Positions 11,455-60,835 of a stretch of 64,000 nucleotides of DNA are shown here, piece after piece; the first letter of the stretch is position 1, and the number at the start of each line of letters is the position of its first letter. The stretch comes from Carcharhinus longimanus. Taxonomy: Eukaryota. A program made the translations under genes and the position numbers. The stretch spans positions 78,404,844-78,468,843 of the forward strand of contig JASCQW010000132.1 in assembly GCA_030264375.1 (NCBI GenBank). Direction: 5' to 3'. Below the pieces are notes generated by a model that saw only the letters and a list, made by a program, of their open reading frames with translations, had not been told where the DNA came from and did not search any database.

Positions 11455-11588
11455 GAGTAGTCTATGACACCATCATGCTTAAACACCAGTGCATCTGTGG
11501 TAACCATAGCAATCACCCTGAGCATGCTGGGAGGATACAGAGCATCTGGTCAAGGTTTCAGGAAACGGGAATGCTCAGCACTTGTGAG
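11455..11588 (+). CDS. HDAC9: HDAC9 coding exon, 134 nt, start of the deacetylase domain: (G)[44 protein letters not shown]
   Basis: Acceptor ttctcttactgcag|, donor gag|gtgagg. Phase 1 to 0 matches both neighbours. Contains the class IIa signature KHQCx[16 protein letters not shown]. Confidence 0.96.
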
Positions 11589-16417: not shown

Positions 16418-16517
16418 NNNNNNNNNNNNNNNNNNNNNNNNNNNNNNNNNNNNNNNNNNNNNNNNNNNNNNNNNNNNNNNNNNNNNNNNNNNNNNNNNNN
16501 NNNNNNNNNNNNNNNNN

Positions 16518-20316: not shown

Positions 20317-20570
20317 AGTAAAAAGTCTGACAACACCAGGTTTTAGTCCAACCGATTTATTTGATAATACTCACAAGCTTTCGAGNNNNNNNNNNNNNNN
20401 NNNNNNNNNNNNNNNNNNNNNNNNNNNNNNNNNNNNNNNNNNNNNNNNNNNNNNNNNNNNNNNNNNNNNNNNNNNNNNNNNNNNNACAAGCTTTCGAGGG
20501 GACTGCCTCTTCGTCAGGTGAATGGAGAGTTCTGGCCTCAGACAGAGCATATAAAGCACAGAGAGTTACA
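20317..20570 (-). mobile_element. Penelope-like terminal repeat fragment nested in the TIR element (spans a gap)
   Basis: aagtctgacaacaccaggttttagtccaac motif shared with 37661-37747; contains a hammerhead core. Confidence 0.65.
20486..20522 (-). ncRNA. Minimal type I hammerhead ribozyme motif
   Basis: Minus strand UUCAC-CUGACGA-A-GAGG-CAGUCC-CCUC-GAAA-GC-UU-GU, continued as GUGAG by the overlapping left gap flank. Both core boxes, stem II and stem I are present. Confidence 0.7.
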
Positions 20571-26410: not shown

Positions 26411-26531
26411 CGAATCCAAGGTCGTAAAGCCACTTTGGAGGAGATACAGATGGTTCACTCTGAATATCATTCGCTGCTCTTTGGCACCAACATCTTCAAC
26501 AGACAAAAACTGGACACAAGAAAGCTGTTAG
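26411..26531 (+). CDS. HDAC9: HDAC9 coding exon, 121 nt: [40 protein letters not shown](G)
   Basis: Acceptor tttcttcctttag|, donor g|gttcgt. Phase 0 to 1. RIQGRKA..EEIQ.VHSE.HSLL is HDAC9-like. Not present in the ORF track. Confidence 0.95.
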
Positions 26532-31628: not shown

Positions 31629-31678
31629 GATTTGTCACGCAAAATTTCTTCACTGCTCTCCCTTGTGGGGGTCTTGGA
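31629..31678 (+). CDS. HDAC9: HDAC9 coding micro-exon, 50 nt: (G)FVTQNFFTALPCGGLG
   Basis: Acceptor ttttttccttcttcatctag|, donor gga|gtaagt. Phase 1 to 0. LPCGGxG motif includes a Cys of the class IIa structural zinc site. Confidence 0.93.
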
Positions 31679-37750: not shown

Positions 37751-39188
37751 ATTGCTGTTATTACCATCCTGTGCGTGGCATTAAAAACAATATCTGAATC
37801 TTCAAATTGATCAGGGTAGCTGGAGAACTGGAATCTGGGTTTGAGAAGGGGAATACTCATGTTATTAAAACTTCATTTTTGTGGAATTAGATTTTCTGCA
37901 AACTTTCCACTTTTTTCAATAAAATGTCATGATTTCCACAATGCCGAAACCTGTACCTAAAAGGTTGGAGTTCTGCTTTACGCAGGTTCTAATGGCTGGC
38001 CCCCTGCCAAAACTTTAAAACCTTAGAAAGCGAGTTTTTAAGGGACTGTCTAATTACCTAAATGCATCCAATTTTGGATGTGAACAACTTCACTCTCTCA
38101 TTNNNNNNNNNNATTCTTCACTCCCCTCATTCCGGTCCTCATGAAAATTGGGAGGGTGGGGACAGATGCAGGGTATTGTGACACATGACATTTTTTTCTA
38201 TTGCCCGTCTCTGTTCTAACCCAATCCGAGCAACAAACATCCAGCCAAATGAGTTGGATTTGGTAGGTTAGGATGCAATCTTAATGTTGGTTTCAATTCC
38301 AGGTTGAGAGCGTGGAAGTGGCAATGACAGGATATCAATCACAGGAGTTCCAGGAGTCTGATTAAGGTTGTAGGTGGATTAGAGAAGTGAGTTGACCAAT
38401 CAGTGGGCCTGCAGTGGCTGACAGCGTCACTGGGTGAGGTGGTCAGAGCTGAGGTAGGAAAGCAAGTGTGAGGGTGCTTCAACATGGATGTACCTTCAGT
38501 TGCCTAGCAGAGAAGTCAAGAAATTAAGAGGCCTGAAGTTGGTAGGGACATCAGGGTGGAGGGGAAGCGTCTTTGCAGGAGCAGTGTTAGACAAACTGGC
38601 AGTCAAGGCAGAGAGACCACTCTGACAGTTGGAAAATAAAACTGTCAATGCAAAATGGCTCCTAAGTGGAATCTTAATTATCTGTCCATCTGCGTGAAGC
38701 AAGAAGCTGATGCTGGCCTCCACCCAGAATTTTCTACAGAGGCAAGAATGCATCAGGAAAATCCCCTGATGCGGTTCCTCTCTTTGTTCCAAACACCACT
38801 ACCTCCAATCCCATCTCTACAGGCCCAAGAAAATTCAGCCCTATGCATGGAGGAATCAAGAAAAAGTCCCGTGATTATAAAATGTTGCATCTTATTACCC
38901 CAGCAGACTTCACACTCAGTAAATTTACTGACAGTGCCCTCCCAAGTGCCTCAGTTACTCTACCCACTTAGACAAAATATTTTTAATTACAAGTCTAGAC
39001 CAATGGAAAGCAAAAATATGTCACAATATTTTGTGGTTTTTATAGTTTACTAGCAGGATTCTTGAAATGAAAAGTGAAATTAACACTGCAATCAGCAGTT
39101 GTAGTAGAAAACTGTAAATTAAAGACATGTGTTGACGGAAGAGTTAAATTTTACATACATTTCATTTCCTAGTTAGAGTCACAAAAAC

Positions 39189-40864: not shown

Positions 40865-40972
40865 GTGGACAGTGACACCATTTGGAATGAGATGCACTCG
40901 TCCAGTGCTGCACGCATGGCCGTTGGCTGTGTCATTGAGATGGCTTCTAAAGTGGCCTCTGGAGAGCTAAAG
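40865..40972 (+). CDS. HDAC9: HDAC9 coding exon, 108 nt: [36 protein letters not shown]
   Basis: Acceptor tgtttgctcag|, donor aag|gtgagg. Phase 0 to 0. Highly conserved class IIa segment. Confidence 0.97.
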
Positions 40973-42767
40973 GTGAGGTCCAGCAACGTTGTGTGTGGGA
41001 ATTATTGAGGAAACAAGAGGCAGAGAAAGTTAACTCACATAATAAGGCCTGTTCTTTGGGAATTAATTGGTTGACTGAGAAACTGCTGATCTGAAGGGTA
41101 ACTGTCCACACAATTGCAGTGCACTGTGAAATAGATAACTTGTACCCCCACATTGTTGTCCTCCCACTGTTCCTTTAACTTCACTTTTCGTTGTACTAAA
41201 GTGTCTGGTATGCTTTATTTCCTGAAAATAAATATTCCCAGTGCAATAAGCCGGTGGTAAACCTAGCGAAGAGCTTTAAATTTATACAGCTCTGACCCAG
41301 CTGAAGATTACTCCAAACGGGATACAATCAATTTATGCTTTTCGAACCAAGTTCTTTTTGTTGAAAGTTTATTACAACCCAAAGCAAGACATTTAAAAAA
41401 TAGATAGAGCAATAGAATAATGTACTGAATAAAAATTAAGATCCCTCACACATGCAGTGTTGTTACACTGTGGAATTTTTCAATGGAATAAGTTTGTGAT
41501 GAAGTTTGCCTGGACAGGTTAAGGGAAAAGTATATACCCTGTGTGGCTATAATTTGACAGTGAGGTCCCAGGCTACCAGCAGGAAACATACAGGTATTTT
41601 CTCTTTTTATAATGAATATTGCAGAGCGTTCTTTCAGGCTGGGGAGTAATTGTAATGTTATCACATACCTAAAAACTGTGAGAGAGTGAAGATTTGAACG
41701 TCTGTTATATCCCCACCCCTTCATGGCCCAAAGACTATAAATTAAAGCAAACTGCCTGCTAAATGTTTAAACAATTCCATAGTAACCCCTACTTCAACTC
41801 AGAATAGGAGCTCTCGTTCCACTGTACAATAAATCACTGGCAATTTTTTTCAGGTGTACTCTTTCCTGTTCTGGGAATGCCACATTGTAATTGCTCTCTA
41901 ATTTCATAATTCATCCCACTGTATCCTCCCCTGCCTTACTGCTTAAATTCAGAAATAATTCTTGCCACTTCAGCCCTTGTCCTAATTAAGTTAAAAAATG
42001 CTTTGGGGGAGGGAGGCTTACTGCCCCCATTTTTGGCAGGTGACAAAGCCAGTGGTGGTGGTGGGGGTGGGTGGGGGTGGTGGGAATCCAATGGGAGTCT
42101 CCAAAATAGCTTTTATGCTGGCAGGATTTCCCAGTGGTATTGGCCCCTGCCTCACCCTCAACCAACGACAGTATGGGGTTCCTGCCATGAAAGGTTGGGA
42201 ACCCCATTCCCATACATTTAAATTTAGCAGGCTTCCCCACCTTATCATTTCCATCTCTTTCCCCTGCCCTAAGTAAGGAATTCTCTCCGTGCCAGTGTGT
42301 ATTGCGTCAGCAGGGTTTGTAACAGATTGGGACCAATGGGGACCTGGCAAATGGTCTCCACCAAGGGCGCCCAGGTAAGTAGAGCCTACAGGAGGGAGAC
42401 GGTCATGTCCAGGCGGTATCATGGGCAATACCGGACAGGGGACTTCCACTGGGGAGTTCAGAGTGAGAGGGGTTTCCGTCAGGGAGGGGGAGTCCCATAT
42501 CTGTTGGAGTTTGTTTCTTTTCTAGGGTGGGGGGAGGGGGGTCCTTCCTTAAATTTTTTTTGACAGTGAGGGGGCTCTTTTAAAAATGGTTCTCCAATAT
42601 GTAAGAGTCAAAACTGGCTGGTGGGGTGGGCTCTGCATGATGTTATGGATCCCATCCTTTCCATTGTTTTTAAGTGTTTGAACATTTGGCGGGAAAAGCT
42701 GGCAAGGCAGCTGATGGGCTCCCTCCACTTTTATTTTATAGTTTATTTATTTTTTAGTCACAAGTAA

Positions 42768-44504
42768 GGCTAAAAAGCAGGGCCTCTCGGGTAGCAATCT
42801 CTGGATTACACCCAGTGCCAAGTGCTAGTGAGGCTAGGGACAGGGAGATTGTACAACTGAACACATGGCTAAAGGACTGGTGCAGGAGGGAGGGTTTCAA
42901 ATTCATGGGTCACTGGGAAGTCTTCAAGAGAGGATGGCACCTGTACAAGAAGGACGGGTTATACCTTAACTGGAAGGGCATGAGTATCCTGGCTGGGAGT
43001 TTTGCTACTGTGGTTCGGGTGGGTTTAAACTAATGTAGCGGGGGGGTGGGGATCAAAACAATAGGTCAATGAGCATAGAGGCTGGGGACAAGCTTGGGGC
43101 CAGGACAAGGCTTCCTAAAAGGAAGAGCATTCTGGGGGAGGAAGACCTGGAGGTCTGGAGTTTCAATGCAAGGAGCGTAATGGGCAAGACAGACGAACTT
43201 AGAGCTTTAATACTTGCGCGGAACTTGGATGTGGTTGCAATGACAAAGACTTGGTTAAAAGAAGGACAGGACTGGCAGCTGAATATTCCAGGGTATTAGT
43301 GTTTTAGGTGCGACAGAGAAGGGTCTAGAAGAGGTCGGGGAGTAGCAATACTGGTTAGGGAGCAGAGGATGGACAATATAGAAGGGTCATGTAACGAGTC
43401 ACTGTGGGTGGAGCTCAGAAACAAGAGGGCGCAGTCACTATGCTGGGGGTATACTACAGGCCTCCCAGCAGCCCATGGGAAGTTGAGGAACAGATAAGGA
43501 GATTCTGGATATGTGCAGAAAAAATAGGGTAGTTATAGTGGGAGACTTTAATTTCCCTTGTATGGACTGGAAATCACTTAGGGCTGGGGGACTGGACAGG
43601 GAGGAATTTATAAAATGTGCACAGGAAGGTCCTTTGGAACAATATGTTGATAGTCCAACTAGAGGGGGGGCTATACTGGACCTAGTACTGGGGAATGAAC
43701 CCAGTCAGGTCGCCAAAGTTTCAGTAGGGGAACATGTGGCAAATAGTGACCACAATTCTGTAAACTTTAGGATAGTAATAGAAAAGGATGAGTGTTATCC
43801 TATGGATAAGGTGCTGAATTGGGGGAAGGCTAACTACAGCCGGATTAGGCAGGTTTTGATGGCTGTTGATTGGGAGAGGCTGTTTGAGGGTAAATCCACA
43901 TCTGGCATGTGGGAGTACAAAGAACAAAGAACAAAGAACAACCCAGCACGGGAAACAGGCCCTTCGGCCCAACAAGCCCGCGCCTTTAAAGGAGCAGATG
44001 ATAAGGCTGCAGGACAGGCATGTGCCTATGAAAAGGATGGATAGGAAAGGTAAGATTTGAGAGCTGTGGATAACCAGAGAAATTGTCTAATCAAAAAGAA
44101 AAAAGAGGCATATATAAGGTCCTAGCAGCTAAAAACAGATGGAGCACTGGAGGAATACAGAGAAAGTAGAAAAGAGCTCAAACAGGGAATTAGAAGGGCA
44201 AAAACAGGTCACAAAATGTCCTTGGCAGATAGGATTAAGGAGAATCCTAAGGCATTTTATACATACGTTAGGAACAAGAAGGTTGCCAGGGAAAGGATCA
44301 GACCACTCAGGGACAAAGGAGGGGAATTATGCTCAGAACCCAAAGAAGTAGGTGAGATCCTAAATGAGTACTTTGCACCAGCACTCATAAAGGAGAGTCT
44401 GGTAGTGTCTCAGAGAGATGTGTTGATCCGTTAGAAAAAATCTCAATTACAAGGGAGGAAGTGTTAGGTTTTTTAGGAAACATTAAGACAGACAAATCCC
44501 CAGG
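42768..44504 (+). mobile_element. CR1 LINE: ORF1 esterase C-terminus plus ORF2 endonuclease, running into a gap
   Basis: LNTWLKDWCRREGF...DGLYLN (SGNH/esterase-like), NARS, TWL, YYRPP, GDFNFP, ILDLVL and SDHNSV. A short minus-strand CR1 tail is inserted at about 43916-43982. Confidence 0.93.
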
Positions 44505-44604
44505 NNNNNNNNNNNNNNNNNNNNNNNNNNNNNNNNNNNNNNNNNNNNNNNNNNNNNNNNNNNNNNNNNNNNNNNNNNNNNNNNNNNNNNNNNNNNNNNN
44601 NNNN
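44505..44604. other. Assembly gap (100 N); other gaps at 16418-16517, 20386-20485, 38103-38112 and 60736-60735+100 (60736-60835)
   Basis: Runs of N seen directly; a 100-N length usually marks a gap of unknown size. Confidence 0.99.
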
Positions 44605-44688
44605 AGGGCCTGGGTGGGATTGTGGTTGGTGCAGACTCGATGGGCTGAAGGGCCTCTTTCTGCACTGTAAGGTTCTATGATTCTATGA
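44605..44688 (+). mobile_element. HE1 SINE 3' tail emerging from the gap
   Basis: gggcctgggtgggattgtgg...ttctatgattctatga. Confidence 0.85.
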
Positions 44689-45049
44689 TATAGACAGAAC
44701 TGCCCTCTAGAAACTGAAAAGTGTAAGGACATACCTATCCAAGCTAATTTCTGATTATGTTTGTCTCAAATCCACTGGAAAGACTGACAAGGCAGGATCA
44801 GAAAACTTAGGTGCATTGGCCCGAACTTTCCTTTCAGGGTCAGACAAAAAACTACACACTTGCCTTCCTCCGATATTTCTGAACAATCTTCCAATAGAGG
44901 ATCCTGCAGAATTTCATCAGTGCAGGGAACCTCCTTGGGAAAAGTTGGAAAAACTCCATTGTGCAGAAGCCTCTATTTTTACAGCACTAGCCTCTGTACT
45001 CTGATAAGTAAAAAGTTTAAATTTCCCAGAACTTCTCAAAAAGCTATGG

Positions 45050-45670
45050 AGAAAAGGTAAGTCAGTTAGTAGGTAGGGTGAGTGAAGAGGTATTTTTGCT
45101 GAGGTAAGTAGGTAAGTGACAGGGTGGCTATGGGGCTAGGATGGATACAATTAGTGGGTAAGGGATTAGGGTGAGTAAGGGGATACAGTAGGTAGGTAAG
45201 AGGGTCAGATGGGCATGGGGTAGAGGAGTGAGGGGATGGGGGATAAGGGATAAGCTGGGTGAGGTAAATGTGTAAGGTGGTAGGTAGGTAGGGTAGTGAG
45301 ATTGGATCAGGTCATGTTGGGTCAGGAGGGAGTCAAGTGGTTACAAGGTGTTCGGGGATGGGATTGGAGGGTTGGGGGATAGTCAGGTAGGTTGTGGCTC
45401 AACAGATCGAGAGGGAGTCAGGGGAATCAGGGGGTCAGTGGAGGTGGGGTGTCAGATGTCAGGTTACTTGATCAAGTTGGGGGGGAAGCTTGTGGGTGGG
45501 GGTGTCTAGGGGTTTATCGGAGGAGTCAAGGAAGGAATCAAATGGTAGGGGTTAGTCAAGTCAAGTAAGGGAAAGTCAGGGGAGTAGGGAACAAGAGAGT
45601 CAGAAGGTGTGGTGGTGGTCTGTTAGGGGGCTGTGGGGGGGCACAGTTATCTGGGGGGAGAAGGGTTACT
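45050..45670 (+). repeat. G/purine-rich low-complexity tract inside a larger interspersed repeat (about 44720-45860)
   Basis: Repeated ggtag/ggtaag/gtcagg words and very few C. Confidence 0.6.
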
Positions 45671-47699
45671 ATGTGGGATTTGATGGGTCAGTTCTAAAGT
45701 TACCCAAGTGTTGGACTAAATGTTAATCTGGTTTACATTTGCTGGTATCTTCCAGGTAAATAATTATCCAAAGTCTCAGGCTCTAACTCAGAGTTGGAGA
45801 CTTTTACAGAAGATTTCGGGAAATATTTTAATTGCCTATTGGCAGTTCAAAATTCCCACTCATTAAGCAGAGTCTCCCAACTCCCCACCAGTGGGTTCAA
45901 TGGTGGATGTGGGAGGAGAATATGGCAGGAAGCCCATAAATTTATGCTATTGTGAATTTACAGCAGGATATTCCACTTGTACTTGCCATGGTGGATCAAA
46001 AACCCACCAGAGGCCAACATGAACCAGATTTACATCCCGTTTAATGGAATGCAGGTGAAGACCTGAATCCCCACGCCAGATTCTCTGCAATGCCAATGGG
46101 AAAACGCATTGCGTAAAACACGTTTGGAACAACGTGGTGTGCAGGTATCGAAACTAACCTGAACAATGTCAGAGGTTGCCTCTGGAATTTGGGTTGGAGG
46201 TTGCCTTCAAGCTAGACCCTGGAACACTATAGCAGTGGGCTGAGGGAGCATATGCAGGTGGACCTTCCTGATTCAATTTCTTGGAGGGGGTCCAACTTTC
46301 AGCCTCAATGTTCCCAGAGATCCATTTTCATTTTCAGGTGATCCACCTTTTTTCATCAGAGTGGGTCAGTGATGTTGGGTGCCTTTTCAATCTAGCATCT
46401 GGACACAACAGCAGACTACAGACTAATCAGGCCTGCCCCGCCACATAATATGGCACAAAACACCTGGGTGCTTAATTAATGAAGTCAGGGTTGGAAGATT
46501 CGGTGTGTTTTCCTGCCAGCCTCCACATGAGAAACATTCCACATTTCCACCCCTGCCACAGGACTTGGTCTCAAAATGGGAAAATTCCACCCATGGTCTT
46601 GGGATTTCTGAGAGGTTTACTATCTGGAGATTGGAGATCTGGGCCAAAGGGTTTAATTTCACTGCATCTGGCACCTAGAAAAAAACTTTCCCAAACGTGT
46701 CTTAGGCCATTCACAGAATATTTCCATATTTTATTTCCACCTCCCTTCTTTCAGCAGAAGTTTCTGTTCAGTTACAATTCGTGTCAAATTGTGAAAGGTT
46801 CTTGCTGCATTTATCCACGAAGAACTGAGATCACACTGCCTAAAATGTTTTCTTATAAGATACCCACCTAATAGAATGAGTGTTCACCTTATCACTGTGC
46901 TGTGGATTTTATCCCTGATTTGAGAGGTAAAAGGGCCTAACCACCCCAAATATTGTGACATATATTATACCGCATGTAACGGTTAGCATTGCCATTCCTT
47001 TACTTTAATAAGATATCCATTTTATTCAAAGTAGCAAATAGTGCTGCAGTGACAAAATTCAGTGATAATCGTCTACGTACTTAAAGAAACTCTAGCGTAC
47101 ACTGGTAATAGCTGCTCCCAAAACAATTACAGATAGTAGGAAGTGAGTAAGAAGGTTGTAATTTACTTGAAGGTTTCAAATAACATCATAAACCACAAGA
47201 ACTATGTCCAAGTAGTTTATGGACGTCATATAAACCCTGAAATTAAATTGCAGGCTTTTACTTACTCACTGGCAGCATTTTGATTAATACAGACTTCAAT
47301 TAAAAACATGAAAATTCTATCGATTACAGAAAATCACACTGTCACAACTATATTGTCACAACTTCAGATTTCATGATTCACCTTCTGATACAATATGGTT
47401 AAATCTAGGAATGATTAAAACCAATAATGGAATCTTTGGGCTTAGAAGTTTTTAAACCCCAGAATTAAATCCAAAAAAATTGTAGAATTCATTTAAATCA
47501 TTGAATTGCTTGTAAATAGTTCTATTATGTCCATTCTTTTAAGAATTGAAGAATTTTAAGAATTGAAAATATTTATTCAAATACATGGAGAATTTATTAA
47601 GTTTTGATCTTGATTGTGTGCTGGCCAGGCTCATATGAACATTCAGTGCACTTTGTGTCAATGAGTGATGCCATTCATAGAAACCTGTCTGCAGTTCCA

Positions 47700-48050
47700 C
47701 TGGCTTAATTCCACTTGCCTATCGTTCTCATCCTCAAAGATCTCCAGTTGATTCCAATCACCCAGTCTACTGAATACAAAATCTTTTCCTTGTTAACAAG
47801 TCCCTTCACGACTCCTCATTGCCTATCACCATAACCTCTTCCATCTTTTCACTCTATGCTCATAATCTTCTGACTCTGTCCTCTTTCCTCCTTGTATGTA
47901 TTGCCATTCCCTTTTCAGTTCCAACCAACCAGATCATACTTTTGTAATTCCCTTCCTTAGCCACATCACTGCTTCTTTCCCCATCTTTCAGAACTTCCCT
48001 CCCAGTATTCATATAATCTAATTCTTTGATTTCTAGTTGGCGCTCCCTTT
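47700..48050 (+). mobile_element. Old L2-like LINE 3' remnant
   Basis: Remnant reading ILKDL..IPI....EYKI..LV.KSLH, similar to the L2 L..LHWLP...RI.FKI motif. Confidence 0.45.
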
Positions 48051-49582
48051 CGACGATGTGAATTACAAGTGGCTGTTGTATTATGTTATTACAAATTGTT
48101 GCTATTGCTGACATTTACAATGTTGGATTCTGGCAATTTGTCAAAAAATAGTCTGTAGCTAATTTCTGGCAACTCTGTGAAAAATGTAATTATGTTATAG
48201 TCAAAAGGCAAAATTCCATGACCGGAGCATACATCAATAACAATATACTAGATCTGCATGAATTACTTGGAATGTACACAATTATATATATAATGCAAGT
48301 AAAAATATACAGGCTGTTTGGATTAGTGAGCAGATTCTGGGTAGATTTGATAAACTCTTATTAACTTTAAGGAATAATGTACATCTCCATCAAATATTTA
48401 AGCTCTGATTTAATAACAACACATATGACCTTTTTCTGCCATTATTGCACTTACATTAGGTTCAAAGGTACTAAATATTGATAAATGAATAAACTATATT
48501 TGACTGTCCTGACAGTTCACAAGGTGATGTGATAAGCTAGCCAGTGAAAAGAATGCAGAGGAAATCAAGCTTGGCATCGAATAATAATCAATCCCACCTG
48601 TAACAAGCTCAAATTTTTCTGCAAGTGATAAATCATATCATCACTATTCTGAGCCTTAATCCCTGAAAAGGGCGGTGGGGGGAAGTTTCATACCAAAATT
48701 TATGGCCAGTTACAAGATAAAGGATACCATCCTCAAGGCCTTTCAAGAGACCTAAATATGTTTGCAAATGTTTAGGGCCATTGGGATAATCTGATCGGTT
48801 GAAATCTTTCAAAGTTGCGTGGATTTTATTAGGAGAACATGCTTTTTCAACAGGCTAGAGTAATTATGCAGGGAAAGGAAAATTGCGAGCAATCTATCAT
48901 CAGGAGTATGTGTAATGTGATTATGAGGAACTAGCCTAAATCTTTCAACAGCTGAGAAATCTGTAAATGGAATGAAACTTCTATTAAACTTGCATTTTGC
49001 ATCACTTCCTGTGTAAGTATTGTCACTTCCTTGCAGATTTGGCAGTGGTCTCTTTGAAGATTCCAGTAAAACTATATTTGTGGCAATAAATCTCACTGAG
49101 CATTACTTTTGAAAATTAAACTTCCTGTTGATTGGAAATTCACATAATTGTTGTGCCCCACTGATTATTCTAAAAAGTACAGATTCTATAATGTAACACT
49201 TGGCTTTCTTTAGAAGCGAATTCAAGCAGCTAATTGACCCTGAGGGATTATGAACTGTTGGCAGTTAATAAGTCATAAAATTCTTGCATAAAGTAGGATA
49301 CTAGATTCTATCACCGAGACAAATAGTACAAAGACCCAGGGTATAAATATCTAAATGTAGAAAAGAGCTGGAATTTTTCAGTGACTGCTCTTCTGGAGTC
49401 TCCAGGGCATGTTTGCTATGGTTTCCTGACTAGAGAAACAAGCTTAAAAAATGAGCACATTAAGGAGTAATTTGTTTGAAGGTTCAGGAAGTTTGTGAGG
49501 GGGAGGAGGGGGAAGGCAAAAGTGACCTTTAAGCAAGAGCTGGACATTATTACATTTGTCATTTGTTTCCTTTCACCTTTAG

Positions 49583-49756
<174 letters not shown>

Positions 49757-49979: not shown

Positions 49980-50077
49980 GTTGGAAGCGGCCCTGGTGAA
50001 GGCTTCAATGTGAATATCGCCTGGACAGGTGGTCTCGATCCCCCTATGGGAGATGTGGAATACCTTACAGCTTTCAG
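49980..50077 (+). CDS. HDAC9: HDAC9 coding exon, 98 nt: [32 protein letters not shown](R)
   Basis: Acceptor cccattttcag|, donor ag|gtgtgt. Phase 0 to 2. Follows a 277-nt intron. [18 protein letters not shown] is HDAC9-like. Confidence 0.97.
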
Positions 50078-60735: not shown

Positions 60736-60835
60736 NNNNNNNNNNNNNNNNNNNNNNNNNNNNNNNNNNNNNNNNNNNNNNNNNNNNNNNNNNNNNNNNN
60801 NNNNNNNNNNNNNNNNNNNNNNNNNNNNNNNNNNN

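What the first reader, a model, noticed from the sequence alone, without database searches (positions are those of the whole stretch)
40973..49582. Two active-site exons of HDAC9 are absent, and the flanking exons join in frame
Seen: the 108-nt exon ends ...GELK (phase 0) and the next recognisable exon begins DVHHGNG (phase 0). Reading 40973-49582 by eye, I found no coding for NGFAVVRPPGHHAEES.AM or GFCFFNSVA...KILIVDW/L. Known: class IIa HDACs have two exons here (about 56 and 88 nt, 144 nt or 48 aa in total) carrying the catalytic His-His pair and the GFC pocket residues. Inference: either both lie in the gap at 44505-44604, or the lineage has an in-frame deletion giving a scaffold-only, catalytically dead HDAC9. 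The gap is the likelier explanation, because its flanks are two unrelated repeats (so sequence is truly missing) and the two exons are closely spaced in mammals as I recall.
Basis: partly seen in the sequence, partly recalled or inferred. Interest (0 to 1): 0.7.

Follow-up and report, generated by a model that had tools for sequence, protein, structure and literature searches.

The report
Misplaced HDAC9 exons, assembly artefact
The two exons missing from this shark's HDAC9 gene sit intact on another scaffold of the same genome assembly, so this is most likely an assembly error at a repeat-bounded gap and not a real gene deletion.

Summary
In detail: the 108-nt exon (40865-40972) and the DVHHGNG exon (49583) are both phase 0, and the 48 residues between them are not encoded in the window. 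They are not lost. One copy of the two exons (56 + 88 nt, AG/GT intact, 257-nt intron) lies on scaffold C72, between an SPT2 homologue and a YhhN/TMEM86A-type gene, 48/48 identical to catshark and Mustelus HDAC9. The rest of HDAC9 is collinear over 570 kb on the window's scaffold, beside TWIST1. The 100-N gap lies between a LINE and a SINE; 9 of the 10 nearest copies of that LINE also run into gaps. All 39 cartilaginous-fish models with both flanks keep the segment. Best reading: a misjoined contig, HDAC9 intact (0.85). The join is not shown: no contig of four runs bridges the gap, and the exons lie inside a gap-free 25.5-kb contig that reaches SPT2 exon 1. A true deletion would not be 'scaffold-only', since it removes SMRT-binding residues. 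No earlier scan note on HDAC9 was found.

The parts
11455..11588 (+). HDAC9 exon, start of the deacetylase domain (...[10 protein letters not shown]...)
   Evidence: best hits shark HDAC9-like, 95% and 91%; bounds read from sequence
26411..26531 (+). HDAC9 exon (RIQGRKA...)
   Evidence: tblastn 90% to P0004 756-796; bounds
31629..31678 (+). HDAC9 50-nt exon (...LPCGGLG)
40865..40972 (+). HDAC9 108-nt exon ending GELK, phase 0
   Evidence: 36/36 identical to P0004
42770..44504 (+). LINE (CR1-like, name recalled) broken off at the gap; start approximate
   Evidence: high repeat depth in four runs; 40 listed copies at 84-100% (the window's own included); 9 of 10 nearest copies also hit a gap
44505..44604 (.). 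100-N assembly gap; inferred true place of the 56-nt and 88-nt exons, which are assembled on G000:C72 minus strand at 80331622-80331567 and 80331309-80331222
   Evidence: gap; displaced exons; placement here is inference
44605..44688 (+). 3' tail of a high-copy SINE
   Evidence: 40 local matches, most of the 25 printed preceded by SINE-like body sequence; depth over 1e6
49583..49702 (+). HDAC9 120-nt exon starting DVHHGNG, phase 0
   Evidence: 39-40/40 identical to five shark and chimaera HDAC9 proteins
49980..50077 (+). HDAC9 98-nt exon (VGSGPGEGF...)

Best explanation
The two HDAC9 exons are present and intact in this genome on scaffold C72, and they most likely belong in the window's 100-N gap, from which the assembler likely displaced them by misjoining contigs at shared repeats. 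Inferred mechanism: the intron piece holding the exons is bounded by a LINE and a SINE; short-read assembly broke there, and the piece was joined through a similar repeat to sequence upstream of the SPT2 homologue and scaffolded with it. The animal would then make an ordinary full-length class IIa HDAC9.
For: Shown: (1) one copy of the pair in the assembly, 56 + 88 nt, canonical splice sites, in frame; (2) HDAC9-specific: 48/48 to P0004 and to Mustelus HDAC9, against 38/48 and 44/48 for the pairs of the two paralogous loci, which have their own copies in place; (3) no other HDAC9 exon in 240 kb around it; (4) all other scored HDAC9 exons, residues 8-1132, are collinear on C132 78.00-78.58 Mb, followed by TWIST1; (5) six window exons of the domain are 208/209 identical to Mustelus HDAC9, with no decay; (6) 39 of 39 cartilaginous-fish HDAC9 models with both flanking motifs (of 47 listed; 8 lack one or both motifs) have the 48 residues in place; (7) the gap sits between high-copy repeats, 9 of 10 nearest copies of the left LINE hit a gap within 1.25 kb of the matched start, and median contig length is 3.8-5.3 kb in three regions examined; (8) the C72 contig is the longest in its 240-kb region (weak hint of a join). 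Inferred: the misjoin itself and its position.
Against: The join was not shown. The exons lie inside a gap-free 25,530-base contig that runs on for 15 kb to SPT2 exon 1. Neither end of that contig matches the window's gap flanks: its upstream end is a LINE in the opposite orientation, only 67% like the window's. The nearest same-orientation SINE downstream of the exons is 90%, not 100%, like the window's SINE tail. No junction was located. No listed contig of four public runs bridges the gap, and adjacency on the C72 side was not tested with reads.
Confidence: 0.85

Rival explanations
1. The C72 pair is a real, recent duplicate of an HDAC9 intron segment inserted between SPT2 and TMEM86A-type genes, and the original pair is unassembled in the gap. 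HDAC9 is still intact.
For: The C72 contig is gap-free from the exons to SPT2 exon 1; its ends do not fit the window gap. A recent copy could still be 48/48 identical.
Against: Only one copy is found in 68,774 contigs, unplaced ones included. It needs both a duplication and a failure to assemble the original, although collapse of two near-identical copies could do that.
Confidence: 0.08
2. True cut-and-move: a segment with both exons left HDAC9 and inserted on another chromosome, so HDAC9 splices 40972 to 49583 in frame and lacks 48 residues, while any enhancer in that segment left the TWIST1 neighbourhood.
For: Exons absent from the window, present once elsewhere in a gap-free contig; phases allow an in-frame join; the HDAC domain is dispensable for repression in the MITR isoform (PMC8516780, passages).
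Against: An assembly gap lies exactly where the exons belong. Neither the displaced exons nor the remaining exons show decay, though a recent event would leave little. No cartilaginous-fish model has the joined form (0 of 39). In a junction-centred search only the query itself had it (1 of 28). The 3 of 73 models with the join are unverified or hypothetical predictions that also lack or garble a neighbouring small exon.
Confidence: 0.06
3. The C72 pair is a remnant of another class IIa gene (such as HDAC7), and the HDAC9 pair is hidden in the gap.
For: No HDAC7 locus turned up (both are floors).
Against: 48/48 identity to shark HDAC9 models; no other class IIa exon nearby.
Confidence: 0.01

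Closest known systems
Cartilaginous-fish HDAC9 (Mustelus asterias XP_078094572.1 = P0248; Scyliorhinus torazame XP_072365285.1 = P0004)
   Same: 208/209 and near-identical residues over the window's domain exons; 48/48 over the displaced pair; same exon order
   Different: only the assembled position of the two exons
MITR/HDRP and HDAC9a, natural HDAC9 isoforms without a full catalytic domain (PMC8516780, passages)
   Same: show that HDAC9 can repress without its deacetylase domain
   Different: they are C-terminal truncations made by splicing, not an internal genomic deletion of two core exons
False exon loss from repeat-induced gaps and chimeric contigs in short-read assemblies (general knowledge; search listing only)
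   Same: fixed-size gap between high-copy repeats; missing exons found intact elsewhere
   Different: here the exons are inside a longer contig on another chromosome-scale scaffold, not on an unplaced scrap
HDAC9 'eExon 18/19' TWIST1 limb enhancers (PMC3371700 passages; PMC6233932 passages and S1 Table)
   Same: same part of HDAC9, and TWIST1 is the neighbour here too
   Different: which shark exon equals which eExon is unverified: counting back from the last of 26 exons gives 18 and 19 for the pair, but the published human fragments are about 4 kb apart, which fits eExon 18 at the pair and eExon 19 at the DVHHG exon better

Membership tests
Class IIa HDAC, HDAC9 orthologue | C-terminal Hist_deacetyl domain (PF00850) | tested here: met
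   (window exon over cut-off); for P0004
Class IIa HDAC, HDAC9 orthologue | N-terminal glutamine-rich domain (PF12203) | tested here: met
   P0004 109-199 is matched by exons at C132:78.212-78.216 Mb, 86-88%
Class IIa HDAC, HDAC9 orthologue | His in place of the catalytic Tyr (LEGGH) | tested here: met
   exon at C132:78550693 reads LEGGH; compare 2vqj and 2vqw
Class IIa HDAC, HDAC9 orthologue | Best hits HDAC9; TWIST1 as downstream neighbour | tested here: met
Class IIa HDAC, HDAC9 orthologue | His-His and GFC exons physically within the gene | tested here: inconclusive
   present and intact in the assembly but on C72; no contig bridges the gap
True in-frame deletion allele | Continuous genomic sequence across the intron without the exons | tested here: not met
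   an N gap interrupts the intron
True in-frame deletion allele | Exons absent from the genome or decayed | tested here: not met
   one intact copy
True in-frame deletion allele | Transcripts joining 40972 to 49583 | not testable with these tools
   no RNA run holding the stretch was listed

The most novel reading that the evidence does not exclude
A shark lineage recently moved the two active-site exons of HDAC9, with a likely TWIST1 fin enhancer around them, to another chromosome between SPT2 and TMEM86A, leaving an in-frame HDAC9 that lacks 48 core residues and TWIST1 without one enhancer.
Probability: 0.06. Interest if true: 0.65.

Novelty: not a real feature. Interest (0 to 1): 0.08.

Why it matters
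As biology it most likely does not. It is a concrete warning for this assembly: exons can sit inside a gap-free contig on the wrong chromosome-scale scaffold, so gene-loss, exon-loss and translocation calls here need read support, and an automatic annotation would produce a false in-frame HDAC9 deletion. If the move were real, it would be a natural knockout of the HDAC9 domain and a shift of a conserved TWIST1 enhancer region.

Tried and rejected
Read support: no RNA holder was listed for the exon stretch. Contigs of four runs laid on 42100-45040 break inside the flanking repeats, so adjacency stays open; X1 is identical in the unique parts and may be the source data. The C72 side has no read test. 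Duplicated or overlapping contigs that might show the true neighbours: none for 8 kb of the C72 contig or 4.8 kb of the right flank (40 best matches each, only self and repeats). End-to-end fit of the C72 contig in the gap: rejected. Locating the junction by repeat family: inconclusive, because most LINE copies end in gaps before their tails. Pfam scan of the long SPT2 exon alone found nothing; the gene was named by homologues and PF08243. The structure model has mean pLDDT 58.7 and is under 50 at residues 187-197, so it was used only for secondary structure. Literature searches listed no report of this two-exon deletion or of HDAC9 domain loss in sharks; only titles and abstract starts were seen for papers not named as read. 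Supplements of PMC3371700 were not opened and may fix which exons the eExons are.

Full report
Observation. The window is G000:C132:78404844-78468843. The exon at 40865-40972 ends GELK in phase 0, and the exon at 49583 begins DVHHGNG in phase 0. No RPPGHH or GFCxFN motif occurs in six frames of the window, and tblastn with catshark HDAC9 (P0004) finds nothing for residues 849-896 in the window plus 20 kb on each side. A 100-N gap lies at 44505-44604, one of four of that exact size in the window.

Gene identity. The exon at 11457-11588 hits shark HDAC9-like proteins first (95% and 91%). P0004 maps in order along C132 from 78.00 to 78.58 Mb, residues 8-1132 (a search that may miss weak matches), the last exon lies at 78.581 Mb, and TWIST1 follows at 78.617 Mb. 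Six window exons of the domain are 208/209 identical to Mustelus asterias HDAC9.

Where the exons are. A PF00850 search of the own genome gave 21 matches. Two paralogous class IIa loci, on C32 and C154 (HDAC4-like and HDAC5-like by their sequences), each have the 56-nt and 88-nt exons in place. A further pair lies alone on C72, minus strand, at 80331622-80331567 and 80331309-80331222, with AG/GT sites and a 257-nt intron. It is the only HDAC9-type copy found (4 matches, itself and three paralogue exons at 78-86%). Its 48 residues are identical to those of P0004 and Mustelus HDAC9, while the C32 and C154 pairs score 38 and 44 of 48. It fills P0004 849-896 exactly, between the two window exons. 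No other HDAC9 exon lies in 240 kb around it. Its neighbours are an SPT2 homologue (exon 1 at 80316185, 94% to Mustelus over the long exon) and a YhhN-family, TMEM86A-type gene (80360945) (the name TMEM86A and the vertebrate gene order are recalled).

Why an assembly error is likeliest. The gap lies where the exons belong, between a LINE broken off in its coding part and a SINE tail, both at very high copy. Of the 10 nearest copies of that LINE that I fetched (of 39 other copies listed), 9 meet a gap within 1.25 kb of the matched start. Median contig length is 3.8-5.3 kb in the three regions measured. The gene is collinear on both sides of the gap, so a real event would have to be a cut-and-move of a middle piece. 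Nothing has decayed in either place. All 39 cartilaginous-fish HDAC9 models that have both flanking motifs (47 listed; 8 lack one or both) keep the 48 residues. Of 73 proteins with both motifs in the first search, 70 keep them; the other 3 are unverified or hypothetical models that also lack or garble a neighbouring small exon. A search centred on the joined junction returned 28 proteins, and only the query had the join.

What speaks against it. The pair lies inside a gap-free contig of 25,530 bases that continues 15 kb to SPT2 exon 1 and 9.5 kb the other way, so the error must be a misjoin inside a contig, not mere misplacement. The contig's ends do not fit the window's flanks, and I could not locate a junction. 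A same-orientation SINE about 3 kb downstream of the second exon is a candidate, but its tail is only 90% like the window's. Contigs of four public runs break inside the flanking repeats, and none listed bridges the gap. No RNA run holding the stretch was listed. A real duplicate (0.08) or a real move (0.06) is therefore not excluded.

If the deletion were real. It would not give a clean scaffold protein. Class IIa domains already have cryptic activity and serve to recruit SMRT/NCoR-HDAC3, and mutations at HDAC4 P799, P800, G801, H803, A804, F812 and C813 block that binding (PMC4498904, passages; the H803-G811 loop forms a wall of the peptide cleft, PMC6294515, passages). These match the PPGHHA and GFC motifs of the missing piece. 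In a model of sawfish HDAC9 (P0014; mean pLDDT 58.7) the piece, residues 180-227, holds strands 181-184 and 222-226 and helix 205-217. The likely product would be a misfolded domain on an MITR-like N-terminus (inference; MITR from PMC8516780, passages). This part of HDAC9 also carries TWIST1 limb enhancers in mammals (PMC3371700, passages; PMC6233932, passages and S1 Table), a second reason for it to stay in place; the match of eExon numbers to these exons is unverified.

Earlier scan notes. None on HDAC9 or near this window. One note on another piece of this genome mentions a piece of an unrelated gene wrongly assembled (e1-8573952); I did not check it and do not count it as support.

Verdict. 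Real in the assembly, most likely not real in the animal. Interest 0.08.

Noticed in passing
G000:C72:80315557-80341086 (L023-L026): The contig with the displaced exons is the longest in its 240-kb region (25.5 kb; median 3.8 kb) and carries the CpG-rich first exon of the SPT2 homologue; it should be flagged as possibly chimeric.
   Followed up: partly
whole genome: Only three class IIa loci were found (HDAC9, an HDAC4-like and an HDAC5-like one); no HDAC7 locus appeared, but both searches are floors.
   Followed up: no
window 43917-43984: About 70 bases of another repeat's tail are inserted in the left-flank LINE; other copies of the LINE skip them (joints).
   Followed up: partly
G000:C132:78616601, 78634062, 78669699 (L084, L085, L089): Three bHLH reading frames follow HDAC9 on the minus strand: TWIST1, a FERD3L-like one (name recalled) and a third, unnamed one.
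   Followed up: partly
proteins P0016, P0067, P0122, P0017, P0251: Three automatic database models join GELK directly to D(V/I)HHG, and whale shark P0017 and draft catshark P0251 lack the DVHHG motif: small exons of this domain are often dropped in gene models.
   Followed up: partly
window 16418-16517, 20386-20485, 38103-38112, 60736-60835: Four more gaps in HDAC9 introns; no coding exon of the domain is missing at them.
   Followed up: partly
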